A stretch of DNA of 64,000 bases from Ostreococcus lucimarinus (Eukaryota). The position numbers and the translations under genes were made by a program. The DNA is taken from NCBI GenBank assembly GCA_000092065.1, contig CP000583.1; one strand, 5' to 3'. The notes below the pieces were generated by a model. The model was not told the origin of the DNA, searched no databases, and saw only the letters and a list, made by a program, of their open reading frames with translations. Below, piece by piece: positions 1 to 36,700 of this stretch (position 1 is the stretch's first letter; every line of letters starts with the position of its first letter).

Positions 1-1317
1 GCACATCGAACAGCACATGGCAACATAAGCCACCGCCGCGGCGTCGGCTGGTTCGTGCACGACCAAGCCGCGAGAGTCTAAAATTTCCCCATTCTGTGCG
101 TAAGCCTCGCCGCGAATACCGTAGTTGGTAACTTCTGCGGTGCTCGAATTTTCGATGACGCACATGCGCATCACAGTCATGACGTTGCACGTCAGCGTAC
201 CCGTTTTATCGCTACAAATAACCGAAGTGCACCCCAAGGTCTCCACGCTAGGAAGCGTTCGCACGAGAGCGTTCTTTTTCGCCATGCGACGCGTGCCGAG
301 GGCGAGACACGTGGTGACGACGGCGGGTAAGCCTTCGGGAATCGCGGCCACGGCAAGCGCGACGGCAATCTTAAAGTAATAAACCGCACCTCGCAGCAAT
401 CCTCCGTGCGCCTTGTCGGCAAAGTGTCCAATGTTCACCACCCACACTAAAATACAAATTACCGCGATGATTTTCCCGAGCAAGTTCCCGAATTCGTCCA
501 ATTTCTTCTTCAGCGGCGTCAATTCCTCCTCCGTCTGCTCGAGCGTGTGTTGAATCTTCCCCATGGCTGTGTTACTACCCGTACCGACCACCACGCACGT
601 AGCCTTACCCACGGTCACCGTGGTCCCACTGTACACCATGCACGTCTTGTCTTGCAGCACGCACTCGCCGAGATGTTCCACCGCCCGTTCCGTCTTCGCC
701 ACGCTTCCGCTCTCCCCCGTCAACAGCGCCTGATCGCACCGCAGGACGTTGGAGTGAATCTTAACCAATCGGCAATCCGCGGGCACCTTTTCTCCCGTCG
801 CAATCTCCACGATGTCTCCGGGCACGAGCGCCTCCGCGTTCACCTTGCGTTTCTCGCCGTCGCGCGTGCACGTGGCGACGTCCGCCTCGTACTTTTTCAA
901 TTCCTCAATCGCGCGCTCCGCGTTCTTCTCCGTCGCCACTCCCACCGCGGCGTTCGCGATTAATATCGCCACGATCACTCCCGGTTCCAGGAACGCCTCC
1001 GAGCCACCCTCACCGTCCCACAGCGCGAGCGCCAACGACACGAACGCCGCGAGCAACAGCACCTTCACCATCGTGTCGTCGAATTGCTTAATCACCAACG
1101 ACGCGAACGACGTCTCCCGCTGCGCCGGCAGCGCGTTCGCCCCGCACGCATCTCTCCGTCGCTGCACGTCCGCGCGATCGAGCCCGTGCGCGAGATCGAG
1201 GACGCCCAACCGCGCCAAGGTTTCAGTCGCGCTCAATCGATGCGCGTCTTCCGCGTGTCTTCGCCACGCCGTCGCCGCCGCCGCGCTCTCGGGATTGACA
1301 TCGCGCGCGTGAGGCAT
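1..1317 (-). CDS. P-type Ca2+-transporting ATPase (SERCA/ECA-type), N-terminal ~439 aa; the gene continues beyond the window start
   Basis: Minus-strand translation from the ATG at 1317..1315 gives MPHARDVNPESAA... The actuator-domain TGES motif is present (...LRCDQALLTGESGSVAK...). So is the phosphorylation motif ...AIPEGLPAVVTTCLALGTRRMAKKNALVRTLPSVETLGCTSVICSDKTGTLTCN... The ORF runs off the window edge, so it is absent from the ORF track. Confidence 0.9.
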   Translation of the reverse strand, partial: MPHARDVNPESAAAATAWRRHAEDAHRLSATETLARLGVLDLAHGLDRADVQRRRDACGANALPAQRETSFASLVIKQFDDTMVKVLLLAAFVSLALALWDGEGGSEAFLEPGVIVAILIANAAVGVATEKNAERAIEELKKYEADVATCTRDGEKRKVNAEALVPGDIVEIATGEKVPADCRLVKIHSNVLRCDQALLTGESGSVAKTERAVEHLGECVLQDKTCMVYSGTTVTVGKATCVVVGTGSNTAMGKIQHTLEQTEEELTPLKKKLDEFGNLLGKIIAVICILVWVVNIGHFADKAHGGLLRGAVYYFKIAVALAVAAIPEGLPAVVTTCLALGTRRMAKKNALVRTLPSVETLGCTSVICSDKTGTLTCNVMTVMRMCVIENSSTAEVTNYGIRGEAYAQNGEILDSRGLVVHEPADAAAVAYVAMCCSMC

Positions 1318-1459
1318 GCTTTCGCGACGCGCGGTCGGCGCGACGCGCGCTCGAGCGACGCGCGCGCGTCGTCGTTCGCGGATAAGCGTCGCCGGGTGTC
1401 CCGTCCAGCCGAACGTTCGGGACGCCCGACCGCAGTGTTCGCCGCGCGCGACGACCGCG

Positions 1460-2047
1460 ATGCCGTCCTCGACGTCCCGCGCGCTCGTCGCGGCGTCCGG
1501 AATCGTTCTGGCGATCGTCGCGAGCGATATCTACGGCGCGTACGCGTCCACGGCGACGGAGACGGCGCCGTCCGAGACGTTTCGCGCGATGTCCCGAGGC
1601 GCCGGGAAAGTCGTCGTCGGGTTTTGCACCTCGTGATCTTACCGCGGCGGGTTCAACCAGCTCGCGCGCGCGATCGAAAATGAATTCGGGATGGCCACGA
1701 CCGGTGGGCACTGGCCGCCGAGCGCGACGGCGGTGGCGCTCGGTCGAGCGTTCTCGTGGGTGCAAATCGCGCTCTGGACGGCTACGTTTTTCGGCGAGCG
1801 GGCGGCGACGCGCGTCTTCGGCGAGAGCGCGGTCGTCCCGGCGTGGTTGAAGTCGATGAGCGAGAATAAGTTTCAAACCGCCATCATGACTTTTTGGGTG
1901 TTCAACATCGTGAGCGCGAACGTGTTGAACACCGGGGCGTTTGAGGTGTTTTACGACGGCGAGCTCGTGTCTTCAAAGTTGCAGAGCGGGAAATTGCCGA
2001 GGGTCGATACGATATTCGAAGGGATTCGCGCGATTCAGGGGAAGTAG
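1460..2047 (+). CDS. SELENOT: Selenoprotein T (SelT/Rdx family) with an in-frame UGA selenocysteine codon at 1634..1636
   Basis: ORFs 1316..1636 and 1691..2047 are in the same frame and are separated only by TGA. Read-through gives a signal peptide MPSSTSRALVAASGIVLAIVAS followed by ...VVVGFCTS-U-SYRGGFNQLARAIENEF...TGAFEVFYDGELVSSKLQSGKLP. This matches the SelT CxxU redox motif (human ...QICVSUGYRRVFEEY...) and the C-terminus (STGAFEITLNDVPVWSKLESGHLP). Confidence 0.8.
1634..1636 (+). other. UGA selenocysteine codon (Cxx-U) of SelT
   Basis: TGA lies inside the conserved thioredoxin-like CxxU motif (F-C-T-S-TGA-S-Y-R). The upstream and downstream ORFs are in frame. Confidence 0.75.
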
Positions 2048-2119
2048 TGTCATCGCATGGAACGATGAGATGCGATGCTCGTCGTGGTTAGCGATGCGAT
2101 GGGCGCGCGGGATGAAACG

Positions 2120-2185
2120 AACGGTGACGACGCGCGCGGAAAACTCGGTCGAAGAAATCGGCCAGTCGCGCGCGTTTGACTTCTT
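2120..2185 (+). promoter_or_regulatory. Tentative SECIS-like stem-loop in the SelT 3'UTR (non-canonical GUGA quartet)
   Basis: GTGA at 2123 is followed by 12 nt (cgacgcgcgcgg) and then AAAA at 2139. A CGCGCGCG helix can pair with 2164-2171, and a TTTGA follows at 2175-2179. This was built by eye; no canonical AUGA-type SECIS was found in 2048..2430. Confidence 0.15.
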
Positions 2186-2430
2186 CGGTTCGTCCACGCG
2201 CTTCGCTCGTCGTCGTCGTCTGGAAGATGAATCAATATATCATCATCATGTAATAAAAACTAACGTAGTTCTCTCGCGCGAATAAAACTAACGTAGTTCT
2301 CTCGTGCGAGTCGAAGACCGACCGCGGGGCGATGATGGGCGACGTCGACGGCGCTCGCGCGGCGCGTTCGTCGCTCAAATTTTATATAACGACCTTGCCG
2401 TCGAAAATTACAACGCTAAACCGTAAGTGA

Positions 2431-3005: not shown

Positions 3006-3217
3006 CTGCGCGCGCACCGCATCCGTCAGTCACACATCCACGCGCGCCTCCATTCGTCCCGCGTCCCGCCCTCTTCCGCTCGCGTAGGCGCGTCTCCCCG
3101 CGCCGCCGCCCCGCGCGTCCGCCGCCTTCGAATCGCCATCCCAGCCGTATCCGACCGTATCGTATCTCCCATCGCCCGCCATCGCGCGCGTCCTCGCGCG
3201 TCGCTCGCGTCGCGCAC
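3006..3217 (-). other. Intron of the LHC gene (212 nt, GT..AG)
   Basis: The donor is G|GTGCGCG at 3217. There is a CTGAC branch-like motif about 20 nt upstream of the acceptor ..GCGCAG|. The position is defined by homology: the ORF frame switches between PGDYG and FDPL. Confidence 0.65.
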
Positions 3218-6733: not shown

Positions 6734-8116
6734 ATGTCGCGCGCGGACGCTCGAAACGCGTACGACGCCATCCTCGACGCGCGCACGCGCGACGCGGCGT
6801 CGATGGAGCGGTTCGCCGCGCTCGCGACGGCGCCGAGCGCGGTGCCGCGCGCCGCCGTCGAAGCGGTCGTCGACGCGGGCGCGCGCGCGGCGCTCGTCGA
6901 CGTGCGCTCGCCGGGAGAGCACGCGCGAGGACGCGCGCCGCGCGCGATAAACGCGCCGCTGTTCGATGACGACGAACGCGCGGCGGTGGGGACGGCGTAC
7001 AAGACGAGAGGACGAGGCGAGGCGCTGGTGCTGGGGATGGCGGCGGCGGCGCCGCGGTTGGAGGCGATCGTGGAGCGCGCGAAGCGAGCGGTGGAGACGG
7101 TGGCGACGACGCGAGGGAACGGTGACGGCGAAGACGATGGTGAGATTGATGTGTACGTGATGTGCTTTCGAGGAGGGATGCGGAGCTCGTGCGTGGGGTG
7201 GTTGTTGAAGGAACGGTTGCGCGGCGCGAGAGTCCACGTGGTCGAGGGCGGATACAAGGCGTTTCGGAGGTGGGCGCTCGAGCGGTGCGGACCGACGCGC
7301 GGATTGCCCGCGCCGAGGGTGTGCGTCGTCGGTGGACGCACGGGGGTGGGGAAGACGCGCGCGCTGTTGGCGCTGCGCGCGAAAGGGGAACAGATTATCG
7401 ATTTAGAGGGGTTGGCGAACCACGCCGGGAGCGCGTTCGGGTGGGTCGGGCGAGAGCCGCAGCCGACTTCGGAGCACTACTCTAATTTAGTCGCCTGCGA
7501 GTGGCACGCGTTGGATGCGAGCAGATGGGTGTTCATCGAGGATGAGGGACCGCACGTCGGGCGGTGCTCGGTGGATCCGTTGTTGTTTGAGCGCATGCGA
7601 AACGCTCCTCTGGTGCTTCGCATGGTCGCCCCGCGCGAGGTGCGGTTGCACACTTTAGTGGAAGATTACGCGACGTCAGAGTTGCGTTCTCATCCGGAAT
7701 GGATGCCCACAATGCGTGAAAGCGTCGATAAGCTCGTCAAGCGGCTCGGTGGCGACCGCGTGCGCGACATTCGAGAAAAGCTCGAAGCCGGCGATTTCAC
7801 CGCCGTCGCCGAAGGTTTGCTCGAGTATTACGACGGTTTGTACGACAAGCACCTCATGAGCAAGCGCAAAGACCGTCGCGCGGCGCGGGCCGCCAACGCC
7901 AACGCCGCCAACGCCAACGCCAACGACGACGCGTGTTCGGTGCAATCCTTCACGTCGTCCACCACCGAAGACGAGGCCCGAGCCGGCGTCGTCGTCGACG
8001 TCAACTGCGTCGCCAACGCCTCGGGTGGCCTCGACGAGGACCTTCTCGTCCGCGATGTTCTGTGCGCCGTCGCTCTGTTCGAATGCGAAGGACCGAACGA
8101 CCCCGAACGCGCGTAG
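6734..8116 (+). CDS. selU: tRNA 2-selenouridine synthase (SelU/MnmH/YbbB family; rhodanese domain plus P-loop)
   Basis: [36 protein letters not shown] aligns with E. coli YbbB [36 protein letters not shown]. The rhodanese Cys loop is CFRGGMRSS. Walker A is [11 protein letters not shown], followed by [13 protein letters not shown]. The conserved [12 protein letters not shown] is present. There is a C-terminal extension of ~90 aa with (AN)n and a Cys-rich tail. Confidence 0.85.
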   Translation: [460 protein letters not shown]

Positions 8117-8270: not shown

Positions 8271-8696
8271 ATGTTCTCTCTGTCCTCTACCGCCGCTCTC
8301 GCCCGCGCGCGCGTCTCGGCGCCGCGTAAAACCGCGCGAAAGTTGACGATTCGCGCCTCCGTCAACTACATTCTCGATCGCGAGGGATGTTCGAGCGCGC
8401 GGTCCGACGACGACGGCGCGCTGCTCCAGACGGCGGCGAAGACGTGCCTGGCGGTTCCGATCGACGTGAACGCGCTCGTGGCGCAAAATAAGGGTGACTT
8501 GGAGTTTGAGAACGAGCAGTTGAAGTTTGAGCTCGACGACTCGAGCGCGCTCGTCGTGCAATCGCTCAAAGGCAAAACTCTGATCGACGGGAAAGCGGCG
8601 CCCAAGGGACGAAAATTGAAACTTCGCGCGGGATCGAAGATTAAGATCGCCGACGAGGAATTCACGGTGTATCGAAACACGCACGCGCACGCGTGA
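8271..8696 (+). CDS. Small protein with an N-terminal organellar transit-like sequence and a divergent FHA-like C-terminal half (tentative)
   Basis: MFSLSSTAALARARVSAPRK... is transit-like. ...SLKGKTLIDGKAAPKGRKLKLRAGSKIKIADEEFTVY resembles the FHA S.NGT.VNG....L..GD.I.IG...F.V half. The upstream part of ORF 8025..8696 overlaps the selU 3' end, so the internal M83 was chosen. Confidence 0.35.
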   Translation: MFSLSSTAALARARVSAPRKTARKLTIRASVNYILDREGCSSARSDDDGALLQTAAKTCLAVPIDVNALVAQNKGDLEFENEQLKFELDDSSALVVQSLKGKTLIDGKAAPKGRKLKLRAGSKIKIADEEFTVYRNTHAHA

Positions 8697-13634: not shown

Positions 13635-13722
13635 GTGCGTGACGACGGCGCGAGAGACGCGCGGACGTTGGTGGTGATGAAGGACGCGCGACTGACGAGA
13701 CGAACGCGACGACGCCGCGCAG
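13635..13722 (+). other. Intron of UBA3 (88 nt, GTGCGTG...CAG)
   Basis: Splicing 13634 to 13723 restores ...[33 protein letters not shown], identical in register to human [32 protein letters not shown]. There is a CTGAC branch-like motif at 13692-13696. Confidence 0.8.
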
Positions 13723-20846: not shown

Positions 20847-20947
20847 CGCGCGCGCGTGTGTCGACCGCGCTTTGTCCGTGCGTCGCGTCCACTCGACGAC
20901 GCGCGCGGCGCGAGCGACGCGAGGGAAGGCGCGACGAACGACGAGAG
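20847..20947. promoter_or_regulatory. ~100-bp bidirectional promoter region between TAP46 (-) and the SUEL-lectin membrane protein gene (+)
   Basis: The start codons are opposed at 20846 (-) and 20948 (+). Confidence 0.35.
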
Positions 20948-23563
20948 ATGACGCGCGGGAAGACGGCGTCCGCGGGCGCGACGCGATGGACGCGAACGCT
21001 CGCACTGGCGCTCATCGCGATGGTGTTGGGCGCGGTCAGGGGGGATTCGACGACGGGCGCGACGCGAAAGTTGCTCGGCGGTGGCGGCGGTGGGAACGTC
21101 ATAGACACCGTCGTGGAAACGGCGGAAGATTTCGGGGAAACGGTGAGCGAGGTGATCGAACCGGTGGTGTCGGAAGTGATGAACGACGCGACGGTGCAAT
21201 CCATGGTCACGGAGACGGTGAGCTTCGCGGAGGCGGAGTACCAAGCGTCTTACGACTGGACCGAAGACGCGTACCACACGGTTCGACAAGACGAGATTTG
21301 TCAACTCGTGGGTCAGGCCACCGTGGATGCGTTTGAATCGACCGAAATCGTGTCTCGAATGGATGAGTATTACGACGACGCTAAGGGTTGGACCGAAGGA
21401 GCGGTCCAAAAGCTCGAAGAAACCGCGGTGGAACTCGCCAAGGACATTGAAAAAGTCGCCGAAATGATCGCAGCCTTCTTCAACGGCTTACAATGTCTTG
21501 AAGTCGCAGACACTTTACAAGACATGTTAAAATCTGTCCTGAAGGACGTCAGTTCCGGGAACGTGAAAAATTTGCTCGACGATGTCAGCAAGCGAGTGGA
21601 CAAATACAAGAATAATCTCGACGGCCCACTGTGCGAATCCATGTGGGCTCTGACTCTTGGTCCACAAGCGATCGTCATCGCAGAAATGATGAGATCTTTC
21701 ATCTCGACGCTCAAAGATAAATGTCCGGCTGCCATGTCTGGCTCCGATCTGCCCGCGTTTGCGCTCGGATTCATAGCGAGTGGCGACGCTTACGCCCTCG
21801 CTTCCACCGGTGCGGGTATCGAGCTCGCCATCGGCATGGATTTGCACGGTGAACGCTTTTGCTACGTCGCAGGCTGTGCGTACGGCGGCATCACCTTCGG
21901 TGATGCCGGTTACGGTGGTACCGCTGGCATACAAGTCACGGGATACAAATCTATTTCGTCGGTTCCCGGTACGGCAAACTTCATCTCCCTCGGGCTCGGT
22001 GTCGATATTCCGCTCACTCCTATCGGTGCAGAAGCCGGTGTGACTTACGTGTATTCTGGTAATGACATGTCCGATCCCATTGGGGTGGCATTTATGGGTG
22101 GGGGGAGCTTGAGCGCGAGCACGTCCTTGCTTCCGGCGTCAGTTTCCCTCATGCACGGTATTTGTCACACACCAGTCTGCGTGACCGTTCAGGGAACAGA
22201 ATGCGGCGCAAAGGAACCAATCTTGGCGATCGGAAATAAACACAAAAACGTCGCATGCGAAGGCAGTAGTAAAACGCTTTCGTGTCCAGCTGGTAAGACG
22301 ATAAGCGTGAACGCAGCGTCGTATGGGCGACATGATGGAACCACGTGCCCGCACAGCGCGACTTCGAATCGAAACTGCCACGCCACCAATTCGCTCGAAA
22401 AAGTGAAGAAAATGTGCGAAGGCAAGACCTCCTGCACGGTCACGGCGAGTCATGGTATTTTCGGTGATCCCTGTGCAGGTACGTACAAGTACTTGAGTGT
22501 TGACTACGAATGTACAGATTCGAAAACAGCGCTCGCGTGTGAAAGCCAATATACCGACTTGTCTTGCCCGGAAGGTCACACCATCAGCGTGCACACTGCA
22601 TCGTATGGGCGACATGATGGAACCACGTGCCCGCACAGCGCGACTTCAAATCGAAATTGCCACGCATCTGGCAGTATGAAGTATGTCAATGAAATGTGCG
22701 GGGGCAAGAATAAGTGCACGGTTCGGGCAGATCATAAAATCTTGGGTGACCCTTGTGGCGGAACCTACAAGTATCTGGAGGTGACATACGGCTGCGTGCT
22801 TAGTGTCATGAGTAGATCGACTCTCACGTGTGAAGGTGGTACAGATGCTCTTGAGTGTCCACCTGGATACGTAATCGATCTGCAAGATGCGCTCTACGGT
22901 AGAGTCGATCGTGACGTCTGTCCTCACCCCGCTATTCACACTGACACGTGCAGTGCGAACGGTGTCTTCGACAAGATTGCAGCCGAATGTAACGGCAGGT
23001 CAACCTGCTCTCCAAGTGCGTCGAACTCAAGGTTTGGAGATCCTTGCGGTGGGACATATAAATACTTGAGCACGAAGTACCAATGCGTTCCACCATCTAC
23101 ATCGACGAGCGCGCTCGCTTGCGAAGGACGTCCAGCGTCGATGTCATGTCCATCAGGACAAACTGTTTCGGTCATCTCGGCATCCTATGGACGACACAAC
23201 GCACACACGTGTCCCCACTCGGCCGTATCGAACCAGAACTGTCACGCGAGCAACTCTCTCGAAAAAGTCAAAAGTCAGTGCGACGGACGGCGCAGTTGCT
23301 CGCCGCACGCGAGTCACCACACTTTCGGTGATCCCTGCGGAGGCACATACAAGTATCTCGAAGCTGCGTACACGTGCGTCTCAGACTCAGCGTCCGCCGG
23401 GTTGGGGAGCGGCCCACTGACGACCAGAGTGTCCTGGTTGCAAACGTTTTGCCTCGCCGTCGCGGCCGTCGGATTCGCGCTCTACGGACGCGCCGACCGC
23501 CGAGACGCCGCCCTTCGCCCAGCCGCGCTCCGCGACGCGCGAGACTACGGCGCGAGACGCTGA
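20948..23563 (+). CDS. Type I membrane protein: signal peptide, ~410-aa N-terminal domain of unknown function, four tandem SUEL/rhamnose-binding (Gal_Lectin) domains, TM helix, short basic tail
   Basis: MTRGKTASAGATRWTRTLALALIAMVLGAVRG is the signal. The four repeats have the form C-E-(G/S)...L-(S/E)-C-P-x-G-x-(T/V)-I...A-x-Y-G-R...C-P-H...N-C...C-x-G-K/R...C...F-G-D-P-C-x-G-T-Y-K-Y-L...Y-x-C. The C-terminal TM is WLQTFCLAVAAVGFALYG. Confidence 0.8.
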   Translation: MTRGKTASAGATRWTRTLALALIAMVLGAVRGDSTTGATRKLLGGGGGGNVIDTVVETAEDFGETVSEVIEPVVSEVMNDATVQSMVTETVSFAEAEYQASYDWTEDAYHTVRQDEICQLVGQATVDAFESTEIVSRMDEYYDDAKGWTEGAVQKLEETAVELAKDIEKVAEMIAAFFNGLQCLEVADTLQDMLKSVLKDVSSGNVKNLLDDVSKRVDKYKNNLDGPLCESMWALTLGPQAIVIAEMMRSFISTLKDKCPAAMSGSDLPAFALGFIASGDAYALASTGAGIELAIGMDLHGERFCYVAGCAYGGITFGDAGYGGTAGIQVTGYKSISSVPGTANFISLGLGVDIPLTPIGAEAGVTYVYSGNDMSDPIGVAFMGGGSLSASTSLLPASVSLMHGICHTPVCVTVQGTECGAKEPILAIGNKHKNVACEGSSKTLSCPAGKTISVNAASYGRHDGTTCPHSATSNRNCHATNSLEKVKKMCEGKTSCTVTASHGIFGDPCAGTYKYLSVDYECTDSKTALACESQYTDLSCPEGHTISVHTASYGRHDGTTCPHSATSNRNCHASGSMKYVNEMCGGKNKCTVRADHKILGDPCGGTYKYLEVTYGCVLSVMSRSTLTCEGGTDALECPPGYVIDLQDALYGRVDRDVCPHPAIHTDTCSANGVFDKIAAECNGRSTCSPSASNSRFGDPCGGTYKYLSTKYQCVPPSTSTSALACEGRPASMSCPSGQTVSVISASYGRHNAHTCPHSAVSNQNCHASNSLEKVKSQCDGRRSCSPHASHHTFGDPCGGTYKYLEAAYTCVSDSASAGLGSGPLTTRVSWLQTFCLAVAAVGFALYGRADRRDAALRPAALRDARDYGARR
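22257..23372 (+). repeat. Four tandem ~285-bp coding repeats (SUEL lectin domains); repeats 1 and 2 share a 63-bp block identical except for 2 nt (22321..22383 vs 22603..22665)
   Basis: gtatgggcgacatgatggaaccacgtgcccgcacagcgcgacttc(g/a)aatcgaaa(c/t)tgccacgc occurs twice. Confidence 0.8.
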
Positions 23564-27740: not shown

Positions 27741-30700
27741 TCAAATCATCGCCCGGTCGTCGTCGCCGTGCGCGTCGAGCACATCCAAAGCAAAACGTCC
27801 ATCAGGACAATCTCGAGACCTAGTCGCTATGAACGTTCGACCGAGGTTGTCAATAGACCACATGCTTGCGTTTTCAAAATGCTTACGATCCGATCGTCGC
27901 ATCGTTTCGTCCACTTCGGGCATCCACGACGCGTCGTCGTCGAACGGAGCCAACGTGAGGAAATCCGTTCGTACGCACGTGACCAGGTCTTTCTTGGGCG
28001 GTTCGACACCTTTGACGACGACGGCACCAAGGGCGCGGAATCTCGCGGGAGCCACGGGCATCCACACCGTAAAATCGGACTGCTCGCGATATATGAGCTC
28101 AAATCGAACTGGTGGACTGAGCACAACGCTGTTGCCGCCGCTTCGTAAAACCATACTCACAGGCTCGGACGGAGGATTTGTGCCACCGATGACGTGACCG
28201 AACGCGATGTACTTATCTACTGGTGGGATGGGTGCCCAAAAACACGTCTGACCTCGGCTTACCACGCATTTCCAGTTGACACAAGGCATGTATGGAGGAA
28301 GAGGTTCGCCGTCGTCGTCGTACTCGTCCTCATCAAACTTTGAGTTTGATCGTCGCGTCATTTCGTCTGCAATCATCGCCGTCAGCTCCTCCGGTTGATT
28401 CGTACCAGGAGTCGTTTTGATCACACGTGTGATTCGTTGCTTTTCGAAAAGTCGCTTCTTTCGACTGTACTCTTTTAGGTGCAGTACACAATTCGCCGGG
28501 GCTTGCACTTCGACGTGAAGTAACTCGTGCCATCCCACGTGCCAAAGGGCGACGTACTTGTCTGCCGCCGTTCGTTTCAACGTCACCACGCGCTGATCGG
28601 TGAGAACGATCAAATAAGCCCTCGAGTTGACCTCAACGCTTCCGAGATACTTGTCTCGGCCGTAGTACCCTTTGTGTGTGAACACTTCATCGATTCCACC
28701 GCCCAACTTTCCTCGCTCGGCGGTCCGCAATGCGCGCTGCGAGCGCGCGGCGTTCGCGTCGTACGTGCGCAAAATACCGTCGGCATGCTGAGCGCGAGGT
28801 TCCCGAATTCGATGTTGCGGCGCCGACGAGTTAACGCCAAGCGCACTTTTCACTCCATCGACACCCGACGCAATACCTTCCGCAGTTCGACCTACGGCGG
28901 CTAAACCGCCGGCGATGGGTTGCGTCACGGCTCCAACCAAACCTTTACCGACACCTTTGACGAAGCCAAGCGCGCCGCCTTTCGTAGCACCTTCGATCGG
29001 TTTTCGGAAAACCCCGGTAAAACCTCGGAAGACGCCCTTGGCGAGCATCTCGGTGCCGGAAGCTAAACCATTTTTGATGGAATCAGCCTTTTGGGCGTCG
29101 GGTCCAAGCGTAGCGTTCATAGAGTGCGAAAACTTTTTGTCAAGACTTAAAGCGGCGACTCCCGCGGACGCCTGACTAAGCGCCTGTGAAAACGAGTCCA
29201 AAACATCGACACCGACGAGCAACAAGAGTGCTTGTCTGGCGACTTGTCGAGAGTAAGAATCCGATATCATCCTCATGAAGGCTTGCTCGAGCGTGCGCAC
29301 TCTCCTTACTCGAAGCGCATGCAGATACAATTGACCGTCATCGATGTTTACGAAAGCCATGCCAGCCATAAAAGCAGGCATCGCGTGCTTCGGCCTTGAA
29401 TAAAGCGCAGAACGGAATCGCAATCGCAATTTCAGTTCACTCACGTGGAAGCTACCGATAGCTATCGGAAGGTTGACGACTTCGAGACGTTCTCCTCCAT
29501 CTTTTGATGACGTCGTGTTCATCACCTCTGAAAAGTTTACCAGTCGCCAAATGAGCGGTTCGTGCACGGCGAGTTGCACGTCAAGCGGAGCGAAGGTAAC
29601 GTCGATGAATGGATAAATGCGCATTTCCAACCCAGCAGATGTCTTGGTGACCACTTTAACGGTCAAGAATGAATGTTCTCGCGTGTCCCCAAGCAAACGC
29701 ACGACGACAGGATACTGAGAGCCATCATTCATATCGTCGACTTGTAATGATTTCACCGTGAGTGCCATGCGTTCAATTCCCCCACCGACGCCTGAGAGAT
29801 ACTCGAAACCAACGCCACTGGTAGTGCAATTGATAATTTCACTCATCGCACCATCGACAATAGCAAGGCTGCTTTCTGTGATAAGCACTGAGATGCGCGA
29901 CTCCGTCGAGCTCGCGCGGCTTGCGGAGACCAAATGCTTGGAGACTGTCGAGCTGCCGTATGACTTGATACGCACAATACGCCTTCCTCTTCTTAACCGA
30001 CGGGTGACCGGCAGGAAATTGAAGTAAACTGAATCACCACCGTCAATGTCGAGTTCCGCCGTCGTCTTCAGCTCGATCTTTGGTACGGGCAAACCGGGCA
30101 ACATTTCGTTCTCTGTTCCGAGATCCAAGTGGTCGAAATCATAGACGCGTTGAATCGAACTTTGAAACGAGCCTTTCTGAAGCACTCGCACTGCAAGTTT
30201 TCTCGCATCTCGCGGTCGAGACCACGCGAAAGCTTTCGCTGATTGCGGAGGTACCACGATCCACGCTTCCAAATTGTCTTCAATCGCACAAGCTTGTCTG
30301 AAGGCGACGAAATCGACATCGCTGGCGTTCTCAATGAGAATGTTTGCGGTGAAACGAGGTTCGATCGCACAGCTGACTCTTGACACTCCGAGTTTTGACG
30401 TATCCAAATGTAAACTCAACAAATCGAACTCTTCGGGATTGACTGAACTCCGTATCGGGATTTTCATGGAATCCTTGATCGTCTTGATGCCGTACAAGTC
30501 TATCGGAGCAGACCATTTTGCGTGTGGAAGTTTGATTCGAACCAAACCGTCGTCGTTCGCGGTTTGCATCTTCAGAGGCACGGTGATATCAGTCGCCTTC
30601 AAAATTAGTGCGGAAGCGTCTTTGTCATCAGAACTTTGAGCCAGCAAAATATCCATGCCAGTTTGATTCGTAACCGTACATCGCGGCTCAATGAAAACAA

Positions 30701-33700
30701 CCTGCGCGCCCTCCTTCGAGTATTCACTGCCAGTTTCCATTCGCACCGTGAGAGAGTAGAAAGAACCATCTTTGCAAAGTGCTCGCACGACGACGGCGCC
30801 ACGAAGAAGTTCGCGTTCATCTATGGGAATGCCAGGCGATAAATGTACGTGAGCGTTCGAATTGTCGATGCCAACTTCAAGCATGATTACTTGGTTCTCC
30901 TTTGGCGCTTTGCGAATCGCGCAATGATGAAGCGATTGAATGCCTCTCTTGGATTTTGGAGCGTAAGTTTCGACCATTTTGACTTTAGAAATAGACGAAT
31001 CCTCATCCGTTGACGGTATTTCCATCGTCGAAGTTCTAATGGCGAGATTGACACCGCTTTTGTTCACTATGATCAAGGATGCGGAGAAAACTGTTTTGCG
31101 CGCAGAGCGCGAGAGGAAACCAAAGTCAGTGCGTGCGTCCAAAACCGCAGTCCTTCCGTCTGAGCTCCGCAAATTCACTTCATCTAACGAAGTCGCATCA
31201 TCATCAGTTTTGACTGCATCAGTTAATGGCATTTCGAAAGCATCAAAAGCATCCAGTGTTCCGGCTGACGCCAACGCTTCGACCGCCATCGGGGACACTG
31301 GTATCAAACGTCTCGGAGGAACCATGACTTCGAAACCATCATCAAGCGCGAGACGCAAGTAATACGGCGTTTCAGGATGCACACTGTGTATCGGTAGAGA
31401 GTTCCAAGGGGTGATGGTCGCAGTGCTTATCGCCTTGACGCTCAGCGGTGTATCTACTTGTCCTTGAAACACAGTCAGCGTCATCGTATGCGGAGAATGA
31501 TTTGTGATGATGTGCGGAGCGCCGGCAGTGATTTTCCACTCCATTGCCTCTGGGTTGAGGTTGTAATATCCGTCTTCCAATAGCTCACAGTCTTCGAAAC
31601 CTGTACCATCATCTGCAGCTTTACAGTCAGGTGTGACCGCGTCGGCTTCGACTTGAATGCCGATGAATCTGTTTTTACCCTCAGCGTCGGTTGTGCAAGC
31701 AATTTCGGCGCCTTCCATGGCACTATGAATCATACAAGACCACGTGCTTCCATGGTCGTCGACATTTGCCCCCCATGATGATTGTCCTCGCAATGTGATG
31801 TTACGCACAAACAGTTCCGCTCGGGCATCCGGTCCAATAATCGCGGGAATCAATCCCACGGTTTCATTTGGCTTGACGACAACACTCTGACGAAGCGCAG
31901 CGTCATCTTCGGCGTCGAGCACGACTGGTCGATTTTCTTCGATAGGCACTCGTCGACGAACCCAGCGACGCATGCGCACCATAGATAAAGGGCCTTGCTG
32001 TCGGTTGTCGCTAAACGGATATTTCAGATCTGGTAAATTTATCGCGTATGCCCAGCCTTCCGAATCGGTGTTTTCACCGACGTGCACTTCCCACTGGCCG
32101 TCCCACTTGAAATCTGCAGGCAGCAGTCTTGTAGTGAACTCGTCGATTGAGTTCGTGCTGTTAGCTCCTTGACCGTTTGACCACGCTTTGCGTTCGGTGG
32201 GAATCAAATGTTTTGACGAAAAACCAGCGAGGGGTATTCTGCGCTGATTCTCGAAAACTTCTTCGTAGATGCGTTTTGGTCGTTTCTTCGTCGACGCACG
32301 ACCTGGTTTGTCATCGGGATGCATTCCCGCCGGACAAATACAAACTTCAATGTCATTTGACGTAGTGTTTATGAACGTGGCCATCGGTTTGAACGTGCAA
32401 ACGCTCGGACCAGAGGATTTTGCGATGCACCGGGAAGACTTTCCATCAATAATTTGTGCCGCATTCCACACGCGAGCGTCAATCGATTTCCATGGACCGT
32501 GAGGTGCAAAAGCTATGCAAACTTCAGAATCACCTTGATTCGAATCATCATTGCTCGCATGCTCACGCTTGCTGTCTAATTCTACAAACTCGACTCGCAC
32601 CTTCACTTCGAGCGAACCGTCGTCGTCCACGAGCGGAACTTTAATGACGCCTTCACCAATGTGAGAACGCTCTCCCGACACCGTCAGATTGCTGAAGAAA
32701 GACGCTAAAGTCATAGATTTTGTGGCGACACCATTCTCTGAGGATTCGATGTTGTGATCATCAGCAATGACCAATGTCACTAACACATCTTTCGCGTACT
32801 CTCGCCAGTGCGTCTTTGATGCGCGCGTGACGCGCGGAATGATTTGAAATTCTTCATTCCAATTGATGCGTGAATTTTGTGAATTCGACGTGATAGCGCG
32901 AGTTGTCACCTTGGTAGAGCCAAGACCGTCTGGAAACTCGAATATCATGCTCGCAACGATTTGCGACATTTCATCGTCAGTAGGGACATCGGCGGAAATC
33001 AGATGAATGTTTGCGGACCATTTCGCTCGCACCGGCATCTTTTCACTATTCTGCGATGATGTCAAAGGCGACGACGTGTCGTCTATCGGCAACGCGTATG
33101 ATTCAACATGTCGATTTGCTGTTCGAATCTCGCGTGATTCTCCAGGCTTGAGACAGACAGCCTCCGACGAGCCAACCCGCAAATACACGTCTTGATTCAC
33201 AAGGTGATTGTCGTAACGAATAGAGTCTTCATCGGCTGCCCGAAGTTCTGACACACCACTGGCGACCATAGTTGTCTGGTCTTGCCACTCACTCCAACGC
33301 AACATCGATGCTACGAATCTCTGCGAAACTGTCATGCAAAGAGGCGTGACGGTCTTTACTTGCACCGCCGTTCCTGCTGGCGCGGATTCATCGCCTGTAT
33401 CGCTGTACGAGAATTTCAAATAAGAATTCGTCGCATCAATGACGGGTTCCCAAACGTTGCGAGAACTGTTATAAGAGGAAACTGCTACGTTGAACATGGT
33501 GTTTCCATCCATACGCGTAGATGTACCGTTAACAACGAACGCAGTGTCTGACAAAGTGGCGCAGATGAGCGGGTATGAAAACGCCTCTCGCTCGAGTAGT
33601 ACAAGACTCACTCGCGGCATTGAAATCTTGAGAGAAACGTTCGGATCTTTGCCTTTTGACTTGTTCGCCCTGGCTCGAACGTAATCTAAAACAGATTGCC

Positions 33701-36700
33701 GCGGACGGAACTGTCGTGGAGCGATTGCTTTGTCTAGCTTCGAGAAATGAAATAACCCCCACCGCGGAAGCTGATCGAGAGGTGCATCCGGATCCGAACT
33801 CCACAACTGACAGTGCGAACTATGCGCGCTCCAGAGCGCGTCTTGAACGAATATCGCGTCATGCGCCAACTGAGTTGGGTCAGTACATATCCCCTTTCTC
33901 GAAACTTCAATAGCCAAGTCTTGACGTAAGCACGCGCAAGTGGTCAGTTGCGGTGGGTTTTTAGTGTCATTTGTTACGACGTCGCCACAGGAAACGTAAC
34001 CTTGCGGATTAATTGGACGCCACACGGCGTGCGTTCCGCTATCGCCTTGGCGTATGGACCCAACCAATACGAATCCGATCGGCGAAGCGATAATGTCGCT
34101 ATCTTCTGCCACTGCGAGCACACCTGCAGTCGGCGGTTCTGGCCCAGCGATGAGACAGTCGCCGAGCGATACGTATCCTTGCGGCGGTCGGGGGCGCCAA
34201 ATCGACGCCTGGCGACTTCCTTCCGGTTTTTCGTCTGACCATAAAATTTTGAAGTCATACGTCGTCACTGTTTGTAGCATATCTGTACTGTCCATCGAAA
34301 TATTATCTTCTAAAATCTGCTCGGCGTCTGCGATGAGTGGAAACGGTTCGGGTAGCAAGGGCGACGACAAGTCCGCCGCCGTCATGGGATCGAAACCGTC
34401 TGCAAATGCCTGAAAAGTTCGTGGTCCGTTTTTAACTTGTCTTAGATACGCGGATGACGTCTTGTGCGAAATGCACGCACTGTAGTACGCCTCGTTGACA
34501 ACCTCAGCGCGCATGCATCGCATCACATCGAGAGGTGGTGGCTCTTCGTCGGAGGTCACAACGCATCCGAGCGAACAGTACCCGTCCGGAGGAATTGGGC
34601 GCCAAACCACCGACTTTTGCGTTTCACCTTCAAACGCACACATGCGGTGAAACTCTACCGGAGCTTTCGTCAAACCATCAGCGTCTGTGATGACTACGAC
34701 TGGTCGCGTGGGCGGCGTTTCGTCGAGAGTCACGCAGTCGCCTAAGAGCGTAAATCCGGGCGGCGGAACAGGACGCCAGAAAAATGCACCACCTTCTCCT
34801 CCACCTACGCGTACGAAAGTTGAGCATGAGACAGTTTGGTTATACAAACCAGTTGACTGAAGCGTTGCCGTGAACCCTTTGGAGAGCGAAGTAAGTCGCT
34901 CGATAGACTGTGCGTCGAGGACAAAATCAGCGTCTGTGGCTCGCATCATCATTTCCATATCGTCCGCCGTCGCCTGCATGCGTCCGTCTATGTCGATCGG
35001 TCTTAGCACGATACTGGAGTCGAACATGTTTCCTTTTGAGCTCCATTCACTCACCGCGACCTGGAACTGCGTGAACGCAAACGCGGCATCTTGCTTGCTC
35101 TCGGCGGAGGTATATTGAAATTCTGCGTCGGTGCGCATGCGCAACACATAATCCGCTGCTCCGCTTGAGGTATCTAAGAAAATAAGCTCAACTCCAGGCA
35201 TCGACGCCTTGACGTTGTAATCGAACGAAGAAGTTCCCGCGGTAGCGAGGGAGTTCTCACTTCCGCGCCGCGACTTGGTACGATTTTCGTGTACAATGAC
35301 GACACCATCCACCTCTTCCGCGCTCAATTGAGAATCCGCCTCCAACTGCACGAAGTCACTCAGCTCGGAGCCGATCGGGATGATGATTCGCACATTCGTC
35401 AGCTTGAGGTGCCTCGCCGCAGCAATATATATCAACGGCGTGTTTGAAACGTGGAAGACGAGCTCGCGCCCATTGCCATTCAACTCCACTTCTTTGGCTC
35501 CCTCGGGTGCGTTGCAAAGGATGCGCGTCGACGAGCTCAAGTCGAAGTCTTCCTCGAGCGTCAAGGACGCCCGTGTTCCGAAATTCAAGTCTTGCCTCAA
35601 GCGAGCGTTCACAAGTCCTGATTCAGATTCGTCTTCTGATGTATTCGAGAAGAAGTTGTAGATTGCCAAGCCGAATTGCGGATCGTACATCATTCTGCAA
35701 TCTTGGAAAAAGACGTCGCAGTCGTAAGACGTTGACGATTGCTTTGCGTCGACGCGAAACAAAGTCTTGGTAGAAGTCGAGCCATGACTCGACCCAAACA
35801 CTTGTTGGGCTCTCGTCGGAATCCCGACTCTTAAATCATTCAGCGCTAAGTCCGGGCAGATCACTGAAACAGACATCTCGCCGTCTTTGTCCTTCCTGTA
35901 GCCGACGTGCATATTGTCAATTTGAAACGCCGCGAGGGGTTTATTTCGTTTCGGTTTGGCCGAAGCAAATGTCACCATTCGCATTTTATTCACGTTCATC
36001 GACATCAGCATGTATGGTGCGCCGAACTTATCGTTTAAATTGCCCGACTCGACGGAAACAATTTCAGCAATTTGGTATAAAGGCTGCGGGACGGGGACAA
36101 CTTCTGCAAAATTTTCCACGGAAAGTGCTGTGAGGACCCGATATTCAAAATCGGACATTTCGACTTTCGTTTCGTTCAAAAAATCAACGACAATCTCGTA
36201 GCTCGGCGATCGACTTTTCGGGTCCCATTTCGGGCTACGAACATAGACATCGAGCGCCATGTCGCGCTCCGGAATCATGGACGTCGTCTTTTTAAATTTG
36301 TCCCACACACAAGCCGAGCAACGAAAAAATGAAACGTTCGTTGAATCCAAGAGCACGGCTCCCACATCTAAATGCGACTTACCTCCTTCCCATTTTAGTT
36401 TATTGTTAACCCTTATGCACTCGGCATCCATAGAAAACGCTTGATCGGAGGTGCTGCTTCGTGGAAAGATGAGTTCAGGCCTCTCCATTTCGACGGCGTA
36501 AATCATCGTGAAAGGCCTCGGGTCGCCTCGCCGCAACAGCTCTGCATTTCTCTCCGACTCTGGAAGTGCACTTACAGGGAGTGGTGGTGGTGTAAACATA
36601 GACGTATATCCCATCAGTTTCTGGATGAATGCATACATGACAATCATCTTGACATCATGGAATTTGACGCGAACGTCGTATTCGTATCCTGGGAAGTTTG

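What the first reader, a model, noticed from the sequence alone, without database searches (positions are those of the whole stretch)
6734..8116. Bacterial-type tRNA 2-selenouridine synthase (SelU/MnmH) encoded in a eukaryotic nuclear context, 4.7 kb from the SelT gene
The alignment to E. coli YbbB is strong over the rhodanese domain ([12 protein letters not shown]...[12 protein letters not shown] vs [12 protein letters not shown]...[12 protein letters not shown]), the Cys loop, Walker A and C-terminal motifs. Together with SelT, this indicates selenium is used both as Sec in proteins and as 2-selenouridine (mnm5Se2U) at the tRNA wobble position. Eukaryotic SelU homologues are uncommon. The gene has no bacterial hallmarks and sits among typical eukaryotic genes. 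Its ~90-aa C-terminal extension ((AN)n and Cys-rich [10 protein letters not shown]) has no bacterial counterpart.
Basis: partly seen in the sequence, partly recalled or inferred. Interest (0 to 1): 0.7.

Follow-up and report, generated by a model that had tools for sequence, protein, structure and literature searches.

The report
Algal nuclear tRNA selenouridine synthase gene
A marine green picoalga carries, among ordinary nuclear genes, an intact copy of the enzyme that bacteria use to put selenium into the wobble base of some tRNAs, and it belongs to a little-noticed group of such genes spread across marine protists, although reviews describe this tRNA modification as prokaryotic.

Summary
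Window 6734..8116 (+) is an uninterrupted 460-aa ORF. It passes two curated MnmH/SelU equivalog models above their cut-offs and keeps every defining motif: the catalytic Cys144, the rhodanese insertion and the Walker A motif. It is a native nuclear gene of a Mamiellophyceae alga, probably Ostreococcus. Neighbouring genes have GT-AG introns, its codon GC3 matches its neighbours, and the same arrangement recurs in at least 16 independent assemblies. The LHC–SET–RRM–SelU order is shared with Micromonas pusilla. It is not a recent bacterial transfer: the best GTDB bacteria found are 33-43% identical. It groups (NJ bootstrap 80-85) with sequences from a choanoflagellate, a dinoflagellate, a MAST stramenopile and other eukaryotic contigs or transcripts. 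Eukaryotic homologues form a recognisable subfamily. The 'C-terminal extension' is mostly a disordered, non-conserved spacer followed by a conserved strand-helix that probably matches the normal bacterial C-terminus; the Cys residues and the (AN)n run are not conserved. No targeting peptide is apparent, so cytosolic tRNAs may be the substrate (inferred). This is a new member of a known enzyme family, of moderate interest, because the literature I could search treats selenouridine as prokaryotic and the prediction can be tested by LC-MS.

The parts
6734..8116 (+). [quoted passage not shown]
   Evidence: ORF. NF008750 285 bits and TIGR03167 282 bits, both above their cut-offs. 33% identity to E. 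coli K-12 SelU, E = 8e-40. GC3 0.81, like its neighbours.
6734..6883 (+). N-terminal ~50 residues: helical extension with a conserved MEAF motif (M24, E25, F27 invariant). It is acidic and not transit-peptide-like.
   Evidence: AF2 helices 3-14, 21-31 and 42-51 with pLDDT 85-93. Invariant columns. 5 acidic residues in the first 30, against 0-1 in the leaders of the neighbouring LHC and the 141-aa ORF.
6881..7288 (+). Rhodanese-homology domain (residues ~50-185), including the SelU-specific ~36-aa insertion (residues ~79-115; G86, G93, G101)
   Evidence: Pfam PF00581 at 50-178. Matches the C. difficile SelU N-domain 3g5j by sequence (E = 9e-14) and by fold (TM 0.82). Conserved columns.
7163..7165 (+). 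Codon of the catalytic cysteine Cys144 in C-F-R-G-G-M-R-S (equivalent to E. coli/Salmonella Cys97)
   Evidence: Invariant in 16 Mamiellophyceae sequences and in 20 bacterial-type sequences. Aligned to the CARGGQRS motif of E. coli. Cys97 is required for selenation (PMC4830565).
7310..7873 (+). P-loop (AAA_SelU) domain, residues ~193-380, ending in the YYDGLYDKH motif
   Evidence: Precomputed PF26341 on the identical protein. HMM coverage to residues 380-393. Weak fold resemblance to P-loop kinases.
7331..7357 (+). Walker A motif G-G-R-T-G-V-G-K-T (residues 200-208)
   Evidence: Invariant G201, T203, G204, K207, T208. An intact Walker A is required for geranylation (PMC4830565).
7880..7975 (+). 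Low-complexity spacer (residues 383-414), including the (AN)n run encoded by a GCCAAC repeat. Not conserved; predicted disordered.
   Evidence: Length and sequence vary among orthologues. pLDDT below 50 for residues 395-414. Absent from bacterial-type and short eukaryote-type tails.
7976..8089 (+). Conserved C-terminal block (residues 415-452): beta-strand VVVDV plus helix [18 protein letters not shown]. Probably the displaced equivalent of the bacterial SelU C-terminal strand-helix.
   Evidence: R416, G418, D434 and V446 invariant in Mamiellophyceae. AF2 strand 419-424 and helix 435-451 with pLDDT ~83. Graded series of tails from bacteria to the window. hhalign on the tail alone is only weak, P = 0.019. 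A bacterial HMM does not detect the block.

Best explanation
This is a functional, vertically inherited nuclear gene of a Mamiellophyceae picoalga. By its tree position, sister to Bathycoccus, the alga is probably Ostreococcus. The gene encodes a two-domain tRNA 2-selenouridine synthase of a eukaryote-type subfamily.

By analogy with the E. coli and Salmonella enzyme, the likely mechanism has two steps. [quoted passage not shown] Second, the rhodanese domain (Cys144) uses selenophosphate, made by the cell's selenophosphate synthetase, to replace the geranylthio group with selenium, giving a 5-substituted 2-selenouridine.

Shown here: family membership, intact catalytic motifs, native eukaryotic context, conservation across Mamiellales, and membership of a clade of eukaryotic sequences.

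Inferred: the enzymatic activity in vivo, the selenium donor, and the site of action. The protein has no presequence-like N-terminus, so I consider the cytosol, and therefore mcm5s2U-bearing cytosolic tRNAs, the most likely site. This last step is the weakest.
For: Family and motifs:
- Curated equivalog models are passed.
- Catalytic Cys, rhodanese insertion and Walker A are invariant. Their roles are defined in PMC4830565.
- The two-domain model has pTM 0.72, and its rhodanese domain matches the only solved SelU fragment.

Native eukaryotic gene:
- GT-AG introns in LHC (3217..3006, minus strand) and UBA3 (13635..13722) restore conserved motifs.
- Neighbours are LHC, a Rubisco-LSMT-like SET protein, an RRM protein, a RING+WD40 protein, CobW, Rad51, UBA3 and VPS13.
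- GC3 of 0.81 lies within the neighbours' range.
- Identical or near-identical proteins with the same neighbours occur in at least 16 independent assemblies, including Tara samples.

Old and vertical within Mamiellales:
- The LHC–SET–RRM–SelU order is shared with Micromonas pusilla CCMP1545 scaffold GG663735.1 and with a 70%-identical relative.
- The gene tree ((window clade, Bathycoccus), Micromonas) has bootstraps of 97-100.

Selection: 6 synonymous against 4 non-synonymous polymorphic codons, pN/pS about 0.23.

Not a recent bacterial gift:
- The best GTDB matches are 33-43% identical.
- Every known eukaryotic homologue groups with it at bootstrap 80-85. These share the signature F.EDEG.[HN].G, where bacteria have W.EDESR.IG.

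Substrate tolerance: E. coli SelU acts independently of the C5 substituent (PMC9105526).

Selenium supply:
- SelT, with an in-frame UGA, is on the same contig.
- Green algae have large selenoproteomes and SPS2; NADH-SPS fusions are reported in protists and Ndh-SelD fusions in Ostreococcus (PMC4561486; PMC2398784).

No presequence: the N-terminus is acidic and folds as confident helices.
Against: - No biochemical or expression evidence for this gene was available.
- No selD/SPS gene lies in the 64-kb window, so the donor rests on literature about related algae.
- The cytosolic assignment rests only on N-terminal composition and a predicted structure. No targeting predictor was run, and Mamiellophyceae presequences can be short.
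- The phylogeny is neighbour-joining on Kimura-corrected distances. The root of the eukaryote-type clade and its bacterial sister are unresolved (bootstrap below 10).
- The polymorphism count is small: 10 codons.
Confidence: 0.8

Rival explanations
1. The enzyme works in an organelle. It is imported into the plastid or mitochondrion and selenates the bacterial-type (c)mnm5s2U34 tRNAs there, the ancestral substrate. The product would then be (c)mnm5Se2U.
For: The family is bacterial in origin, and its canonical substrates exist in organelles (established knowledge of MnmA/MnmE/MnmG homologues, e.g. the abstract of PMC10723064 listed). In the NJ tree the nearest bacteria to the eukaryote-type clade are Prochlorococcus and then other cyanobacteria. 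Several non-Mamiellophyceae members have long N-terminal extensions, for example P0206, whose match starts at residue 236.
Against: The cyanobacterial neighbourhood has bootstrap below 10. The window protein's first 30 residues contain 5 acidic residues, whereas the plastid LHC encoded 3.5 kb away has an S/T/R-rich, nearly acid-free leader. Orthologue N-termini are even more acidic (poly-E in Bathycoccus, D-rich in P0004). Residues 1-50 are predicted as confident helices packed on the domain. Only 164 bp separate the ATG from the divergent RRM gene, so there is no room for a missing upstream exon. A plastid-only role cannot explain the choanoflagellate member.
Confidence: 0.25
2. The gene is bacterial contamination, a chimeric assembly, or a very recent horizontal transfer from a bacterium into this one alga.
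For: The family is overwhelmingly bacterial, and reviews describe it as prokaryotic. The gene has no intron.
Against: The same flanking eukaryotic genes occur in at least 16 independently assembled contigs. Introns are present in genes on both sides. GC3 is native. Synteny is conserved with Micromonas pusilla and with a 70%-identical relative. No GTDB bacterium found was more than 43% identical. The Mamiellophyceae are monophyletic at bootstrap 100 inside a eukaryotic clade at 80-85.
Confidence: 0.02
3. The protein has changed function in eukaryotes. It keeps the fold but acts only as a tRNA geranyltransferase, or as a sulfur or selenium carrier for another pathway, and makes no selenouridine.
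For: The eukaryote-type subfamily has its own motif changes: EDES to EDEG, a Trp in GSAFGW, and Arg in the Walker A motif. It also has an extra N-terminal helical segment. Geranylation and selenation are separable activities in Salmonella MnmH (PMC4830565).
Against: The Cys that is needed only for selenation is invariant in all Mamiellophyceae and in nearly all eukaryote-type sequences. The protein scores above the cut-offs of equivalog models, which are built for functional equivalence. The organisms that carry it are selenium users.
Confidence: 0.1

Closest known systems
[quoted passage not shown]
   Same: Single polypeptide with an N-terminal rhodanese domain carrying the SelU-specific insertion and the catalytic Cys, and a C-terminal P-loop domain with Walker A and the YYD motif. 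33% identity over 366 residues to E. coli SelU. Equivalog cut-offs are passed.
   Different: Encoded in a eukaryotic nucleus. It has about 35 extra structured N-terminal residues and a 30-60-aa disordered low-complexity spacer before the C-terminal strand-helix. It carries subfamily motif changes (F.[19 protein letters not shown].GKT). It is not in an operon with selD. The tRNA substrate pool is unknown.
Eukaryote-type SelU homologues: Micromonas pusilla XP_003054879 ('predicted protein'), Bathycoccus prasinos CAL6413667, Didymoeca costata EP00039_P030727, a dinoflagellate, MAST and MMETSP transcripts
   Same: Same subfamily signature and the same clade (bootstrap 80-85). Micromonas shares the LHC–SET–RRM–SelU gene order. 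The conserved C-terminal R.G.(I/V)V.V strand is shared with several of them.
   Different: 48-57% identity to Micromonas and Bathycoccus. Those two carry a long insert between the two domains that the window protein lacks. The non-green members have short tails without the spacer. None has been characterised experimentally, as far as the searched literature shows.
Archaeal split SelU (Methanococcales; TIGR04568 + TIGR04569)
   Same: Same two domains and the same presumed chemistry.
   Different: In archaea the domains are encoded by two adjacent genes. The window protein scores far below both archaeal cut-offs (52.7 against 200 and 25.1 against 180 bits) and has the fused bacterial arrangement.
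Selenoprotein U (SELENOU), the eukaryotic selenoprotein family also abbreviated 'SelU'
   Same: Only the abbreviation and the link to selenium. It is listed among eukaryotic selenoproteins in marine samples (PMC2398784).
   Different: An unrelated family. As far as I know it is a thioredoxin-fold selenoprotein that contains Sec (my own knowledge, not tested here). The window ORF has no in-frame TGA and consists of rhodanese plus P-loop domains.

Membership tests
[quoted passage not shown] | Whole-protein score above the curated cut-off of the equivalog HMMs | tested here: met
   NF008750 scores 285 bits against a cut-off of 241. TIGR03167 scores 282.4 against 219.75. Three other sub-models (NF008749, NF008751, NF008752) match but fall below their own cut-offs.
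[quoted passage not shown] | Rhodanese domain with the catalytic Cys in a C-x-x-G loop (Cys97 of Salmonella/E. coli), required for selenation | tested here: met
   C144-F-R-G-G-M-R-S. Invariant in 16 Mamiellophyceae and 20 bacterial-type sequences. Aligned to E. coli CARGGQRS. The requirement is stated in PMC4830565.
[quoted passage not shown] | Conserved ~33-36-aa insertion in the rhodanese domain, absent from single-domain rhodaneses and containing the position equivalent to G67 | tested here: met
   Residues ~79-115 ([22 protein letters not shown]...). They align without gaps to E. coli and to the C. difficile SelU N-domain 3g5j. G86, G93 and G101 are conserved. The feature is described in PMC4830565.
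[quoted passage not shown] | C-terminal P-loop domain with Walker A G-x4-GKT, required for geranylation | tested here: met
   G-G-R-T-G-V-G-K-T at residues 200-208. PF26341 AAA_SelU is on the identical protein.
[quoted passage not shown] | Both domains in one polypeptide (bacterial arrangement) | tested here: met
   One uninterrupted ORF. The archaeal split-subunit models fall far below their cut-offs.
[quoted passage not shown] | Selenophosphate synthetase (SelD/SPS) present in the same genome | not testable with these tools
   None of the genes I scanned across the 64-kb window is a selD/SPS. The rest of the genome is not available. The literature reports SPS2 and large selenoproteomes in green algae and an Ndh-SelD fusion in Ostreococcus. 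SelT with a UGA codon on this contig shows that the cell uses selenophosphate.
[quoted passage not shown] | Catalyses selenophosphate-dependent conversion of 2-thiouridine-34 to 2-selenouridine in tRNA | not testable with these tools
   This needs an enzymatic assay or tRNA nucleoside LC-MS.
Archaeal split SelU (TIGR04568 / TIGR04569) | Score above cut-off, with the two domains on separate adjacent genes | tested here: not met
   52.7 bits against 200, and 25.1 bits against 180. The domains are fused.
Eukaryote-type SelU subfamily (proposed here) | Signature F-x-E-D-E-G-x-[HN]-x-G (bacteria: W-x-E-D-E-S-R-x-I-G) and grouping with sequences of proven eukaryotic origin | tested here: met
   The window has [18 protein letters not shown] and GGRTGVGKT. 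The clade holding the MMETSP, Didymoeca, dinoflagellate and MAST sequences and the contigs with eukaryotic neighbours has bootstrap 80-85 in NJ. The signature alone is not fully specific: four loosely matching sequences fall outside the clade.

The most novel reading that the evidence does not exclude
Selenouridine is not a purely prokaryotic trait. A monophyletic, eukaryote-type SelU works in the cytosol of many marine protists (prasinophyte algae, choanoflagellates, dinoflagellates, MAST stramenopiles). There it converts the eukaryotic wobble base mcm5s2U into mcm5Se2U. It may be paired with the bacterial-like NADH-SPS fusion that some protists acquired by horizontal transfer, perhaps as a former selD–ybbB operon. 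Under this reading, selenium supply in the ocean would directly affect decoding of Lys, Glu and Gln codons in abundant picoplankton.
Probability: 0.3. Interest if true: 0.75.

Novelty: new member of a known kind. Interest (0 to 1): 0.5.

Why it matters
Reviews and comparative-genomics papers up to 2024 describe 2-selenouridine and YbbB/SelU as features of prokaryotes (PMC9312934, PMC11227280, PMC4561486). I found no paper in the searchable library that reports a eukaryotic SelU, although annotation pipelines already name these proteins.

This gene is native, conserved and intact in some of the most abundant marine picoeukaryotes, and it belongs to a clade spread over several eukaryotic supergroups. 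That turns an old, vague question, whether eukaryotes make seleno-tRNA and by what enzyme, into a direct experiment on culturable organisms (Ostreococcus, Micromonas, Bathycoccus).

The finding would add a second selenium-dependent process to these algae, which are known for large selenoproteomes. It would also bear on selenium limitation of phytoplankton, and it may reveal a new modified nucleoside if the substrate is cytosolic mcm5s2U.

Tried and rejected
- **Rfam scans.** A scan of the whole window at gathering thresholds and a permissive scan of the SelT 3' region found no SECIS or any other family. A SECIS-like stem-loop is seen only by folding.
- **tRNA genes.** None in the window.
- **Bacterial-only HMM against the C-terminal tail.** Not significant (E = 1.1), and deleting the spacer did not raise the score. 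Homology of the tail therefore rests on intermediate sequences, the predicted structure and a weak hhalign hit (P = 0.019). My first 'bacterial' set was contaminated by a truncated eukaryote-type sequence (P0212), which made the first hhalign run uninformative.
- **First NJ tree.** The 150-representative tree left everything outside the Mamiellophyceae unresolved. A second tree with fragments removed and named bacteria added gave the supported eukaryotic clade. The bacterial sister group remains unresolved.
- **AlphaFold-database fold search.** The library was unavailable. The PDB search only confirmed the domains.
- **Naming the organism.** The attempt through NCBI-sourced cluster members ended at a marine metagenome.
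- **G-ending codon idea.** I asked whether SelU helps decode G-ending Lys/Glu/Gln codons in a GC-rich genome. These codons are roughly balanced (AAG 63%, GAG 57%, CAG 44%), and low-GC Bathycoccus also has the gene, so nothing supports the idea.
- **SelT–SelU functional cluster.** Rejected. Three unrelated genes lie between them, and the linkage is ordinary conserved synteny.
- **The Micromonas 'intron' as a eukaryotic hallmark of the gene itself.** Rejected. An uninterrupted 491-aa ORF exists for the same sequence, so the intron may be a gene-model artefact.
- **Literature.** Seven searches found no report of eukaryotic SelU. The first multi-term search was badly designed and uninformative.
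Full report
**1. The observation**

Window 6734..8116 (+) is a single ATG-initiated ORF of 460 codons. Two curated NCBIfam equivalog models for tRNA 2-selenouridine(34) synthase MnmH are passed above their cut-offs: NF008750 at 285 bits (cut-off 241) and TIGR03167 at 282.4 bits (cut-off 219.75). The archaeal split-subunit models fall far below theirs. Pfam finds the rhodanese domain at residues 50-178. The precomputed annotation of the identical database protein adds PF26341, AAA_SelU.

I fetched the real E. coli K-12 selU (b0503) and compared it. The only solved relative is the N-terminal domain of a C. difficile SelU (3g5j). It matches by sequence (E = 9e-14) and by fold (TM 0.82 on the target).

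**2. Defining features**

Jäger et al. (PMC4830565) define MnmH by four features:
- a rhodanese domain with catalytic Cys97, absolutely required for selenation;
- a conserved insertion of about 36 aa in that domain, containing G67;
- a P-loop domain whose Walker A motif (G-x4-GKT) is required for geranylation;
- fusion of both domains in bacteria, against two genes in archaea.

All four are present here: C144 in CFRGGMRS, the insertion at about residues 79-115 with G86, G93 and G101, GGRTGVGKT at 200-208, and one polypeptide. These columns are invariant both in an alignment of 16 Mamiellophyceae orthologues and in an alignment with 20 bacterial-type sequences. An AlphaFold2 model from the 16-sequence alignment has mean pLDDT 77 and pTM 0.72 and shows the two domains.

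**3. Eukaryotic nuclear context**

The neighbouring genes are, in order:
- a P-type ATPase;
- SelT/Rdx, with an in-frame TGA at 1634-1636;
- a chlorophyll a/b-binding protein;
- a Rubisco-LSMT-like SET protein;
- an RRM protein;
- SelU;
- a conserved 141-aa ORF;
- a RING+WD40 (COP1-like) protein;
- CobW;
- a Rad51 paralogue;
- UBA3;
- further on, TAP42, a G-patch protein, a 4242-aa VPS13, MutS and an ABC-F protein.

Two neighbours contain canonical GT-AG introns whose removal restores conserved motifs. In LHC the intron is 3217..3006 on the minus strand and restores GDYG|FDPLRLG. In UBA3 it is 13635..13722 and restores LKGL|ALSGFTTLDVIDMDTIDV. SelU's third-position GC (0.81) lies within its neighbours' range (0.66-0.87).

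The identical protein, and a variant from the same 90%-identity cluster (P0122), are found with the same flanking genes on at least 16 contigs from independent marine runs, including Tara Oceans samples. Contamination and chimerism are excluded.

**4. Age and origin**

The LHC–SET–RRM–SelU order is conserved on Micromonas pusilla CCMP1545 scaffold GG663735.1. On a 198-kb contig of a 70%-identical relative, SelT, the RING-WD40 gene, cobW, Rad51 and ThiF are also in place. The Bathycoccus prasinos orthologue is in NCBI.

In an NJ tree the Mamiellophyceae are monophyletic (bootstrap 100) with the topology ((window clade, Bathycoccus), Micromonas). As far as I know this matches the accepted species relationships, and it suggests that the window comes from Ostreococcus.

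A pattern-based scan of one genome from each of 185,579 bacterial and archaeal species, capped at 600 matched stretches, found nothing above 43% identity. The best matches are Bacteroidota, Cyanobacteria and a Pirellulaceae MAG.

The nearest non-Mamiellophyceae representatives in an exhaustive HMMER search turned out to be eukaryotic:
- an MMETSP transcript;
- the choanoflagellate Didymoeca costata;
- a dinoflagellate;
- a MAST stramenopile and another EukProt protein;
- a sequence on a 397-kb contig among importin-11, BCAS2, SF3b10, ribosomal P0 and PIH1 genes;
- a sequence among Myb, EF-hand and LRR genes.

These share a signature (F.EDEG.[HN].G, GSAFGW, GGRTG.GKT) that bacterial-type sequences lack. 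They form one clade with the Mamiellophyceae at bootstrap 80-85. The position of that clade among bacteria is unresolved; the Prochlorococcus and cyanobacterial neighbourhood has bootstrap below 10.

The gene is therefore neither alga-specific nor a recent transfer. It belongs to a eukaryote-type SelU subfamily of uncertain ultimate origin.

**5. The C-terminal 'extension'**

After YYDGLY the window protein has 90 residues, against 33-50 in bacterial-type sequences. Within the Mamiellophyceae this tail has three parts:
- a spacer (residues 383-414) that varies in length and sequence and contains the (AN)n run;
- a conserved block with R416, G418, D434 and V446 invariant;
- a variable acidic end.

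The cysteines of [10 protein letters not shown] are replaced in close relatives, so they are not a conserved motif.

The model puts the spacer at pLDDT below 50. It folds the block as a β-strand (419-424) plus a helix (435-451) at pLDDT about 83. Eukaryote-type sequences outside the Mamiellophyceae have tails of nearly bacterial length that carry the same strand and helix. Lined up, the tails form a graded series from bacterial (…TLDVSIAEGMTAAEAAAHVLEAW) through P0219 (…VTVDVIIEEMDIEKAAKLVLEKI) and P0202 (…RVVDVSAPEDGDVLDAVAVARTVIALL) to the window (…[28 protein letters not shown]).

Statistical support is weak. A bacterial HMM does not see the tail, and hhalign on the tails alone gives P = 0.019 in the expected register. 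My reading is that the block is the ordinary SelU C-terminus displaced by a lineage-specific disordered insert. The claim 'no bacterial counterpart' is therefore probably wrong for half of the tail and right for the spacer.

**6. How it most likely works**

[quoted passage not shown] The rhodanese Cys, together with selenophosphate, then replaces the geranylthio group by selenium (PMC4830565; PMC7694415; PMC9105526). Retention of the Cys, which is needed only for selenation, argues that selenation has been kept.

The selenium donor is inferred. The contig itself encodes a UGA-containing SelT, and a SECIS-like stem-loop lies just downstream (2098-2210, ΔG −65 kcal/mol, z = −3.6; no Rfam match). 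Green algae have SPS2 and large selenoproteomes, and Ndh-SelD fusions are reported in Ostreococcus.

The site of action is the least certain step. The N-terminus ([23 protein letters not shown]…) has 5 acidic residues in its first 30. The LHC and the 141-aa neighbour have acid-poor, S/T/R-rich leaders. Orthologue N-termini are even more acidic. Residues 1-50 are modelled as confident helices. Only 164 bp separate the ATG from the divergently oriented RRM gene.

This points to the cytosol, where the 2-thiolated wobble base is mcm5s2U (established knowledge). E. coli SelU acts independently of the C5 substituent, so mcm5Se2U is a plausible product. An organellar role remains a serious rival (about 0.25).

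**7. Selection**

Six haplotypes among 17 coding sequences differ at 6 synonymous and 4 non-synonymous codons, giving pN/pS of about 0.23. All four amino-acid changes lie in variable parts of the rhodanese region (residues 63, 64, 79 and 122). The sample is small, but it agrees with the deep conservation of the motifs.

**8. Comparison with what is known, and novelty**

The protein is a bona fide member of the SelU/MnmH family. JGI's pipeline already labels the metagenomic copies 'tRNA 2-selenouridine synthase', and the Micromonas orthologue sits in RefSeq as a 'predicted protein'. The gene itself is therefore not a discovery.

The literature I could search treats the trait as prokaryotic:
- 'some prokaryotic tRNAs' (PMC11227280);
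- 'ybbB: selenouridine synthase (prokaryotes)' (the preprint of Mariotti et al.).

Seven searches found no report of a eukaryotic SelU. One general review assigns mnm5se2U to all three domains without naming an enzyme (PMC7694415).

I rate it a new member of a known kind. Interest is moderate (0.5), because it points to an under-appreciated eukaryote-type clade and gives a directly testable prediction in culturable, ecologically dominant algae.

**9. Limits**

- No experiment and no expression data for this gene were available.
- The rest of the genome could not be searched.
- The trees are distance-based.
- No targeting predictor was available.
- The AlphaFold-database fold library was unavailable.
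- The structural equivalence of the C-terminal block to the bacterial C-terminus was not checked by superposition.

Noticed in passing
window 1316..2050 (+), and 2098..2210 (+): SelT-like selenoprotein gene with an in-frame TGA at 1634-1636 (GFCTS-U-SYRGG) and an Rdx domain. About 50 nt after its stop codon lies a long stem-loop (ΔG −65 kcal/mol, z = −3.6) with a GUGA/UUGA internal loop, an AAAA bulge and a 6-bp apical helix. It looks like a type-II SECIS with a non-canonical core. Rfam finds no SECIS here.
   Followed up: partly
window 27741..40469 (-): One uninterrupted 4242-codon ORF encoding a VPS13-like lipid-transfer protein (VPS13_N, Vps62, VAB and VPS13_C domains). It accounts for the drop in GC to about 0.50, against about 0.62 in the flanks. 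Unlike the other genes, it prefers A-ending Lys/Glu/Gln codons. I did not explain this compositional oddity.
   Followed up: partly
window 8271..8696 (+): A 141-aa ORF with no Pfam match sits directly downstream of SelU in every assembly, and in a 70%-identical relative as well (149 aa, L008 7728..8177). Its N-terminus is S/T/R-rich and free of acidic residues, like a transit peptide.
   Followed up: partly
window 3217..3006 (-) and 13635..13722 (+): Canonical GT-AG introns (212 and 88 nt, each with a CTGAC branch-like motif upstream of the AG) in the LHC gene and the UBA3 gene. Splicing restores GDYG|FDPLRLG and LKGL|ALSGFTTLDVIDMDTIDV.
   Followed up: yes
window 20858..23563 (+): A 901-aa protein with four SUEL-type (D-galactoside/L-rhamnose-binding) lectin domains (E = 4e-100), which struck me as unexpected in a picoalga.
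   Followed up: no
window ~7889..7924 (+): A GCCAAC hexanucleotide repeat encodes the (AN)n run inside the SelU spacer. Spacer length and sequence differ even between 89-92%-identical relatives, which suggests microsatellite-type instability inside a coding region.
   Followed up: partly
L007 6001..7386 (Micromonas pusilla CCMP1545, GG663735.1): The RefSeq model XP_003054879 (421 aa) lacks the N-terminal region and an in-frame low-complexity linker. An otherwise identical uninterrupted 491-aa ORF (P0023) retains both, so the annotated intron and start codon may be gene-model artefacts.
   Followed up: partly
L089 and L090 (metagenomic contigs of 397 kb and 102 kb): Eukaryote-type SelU genes lie on long, compact, apparently intron-poor contigs of unidentified marine eukaryotes. 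The neighbours are importin-11, BCAS2, SF3b10, RPLP0 and PIH1 on one contig, and Myb, EF-hand and LRR genes on the other. I did not identify the organisms.
   Followed up: no
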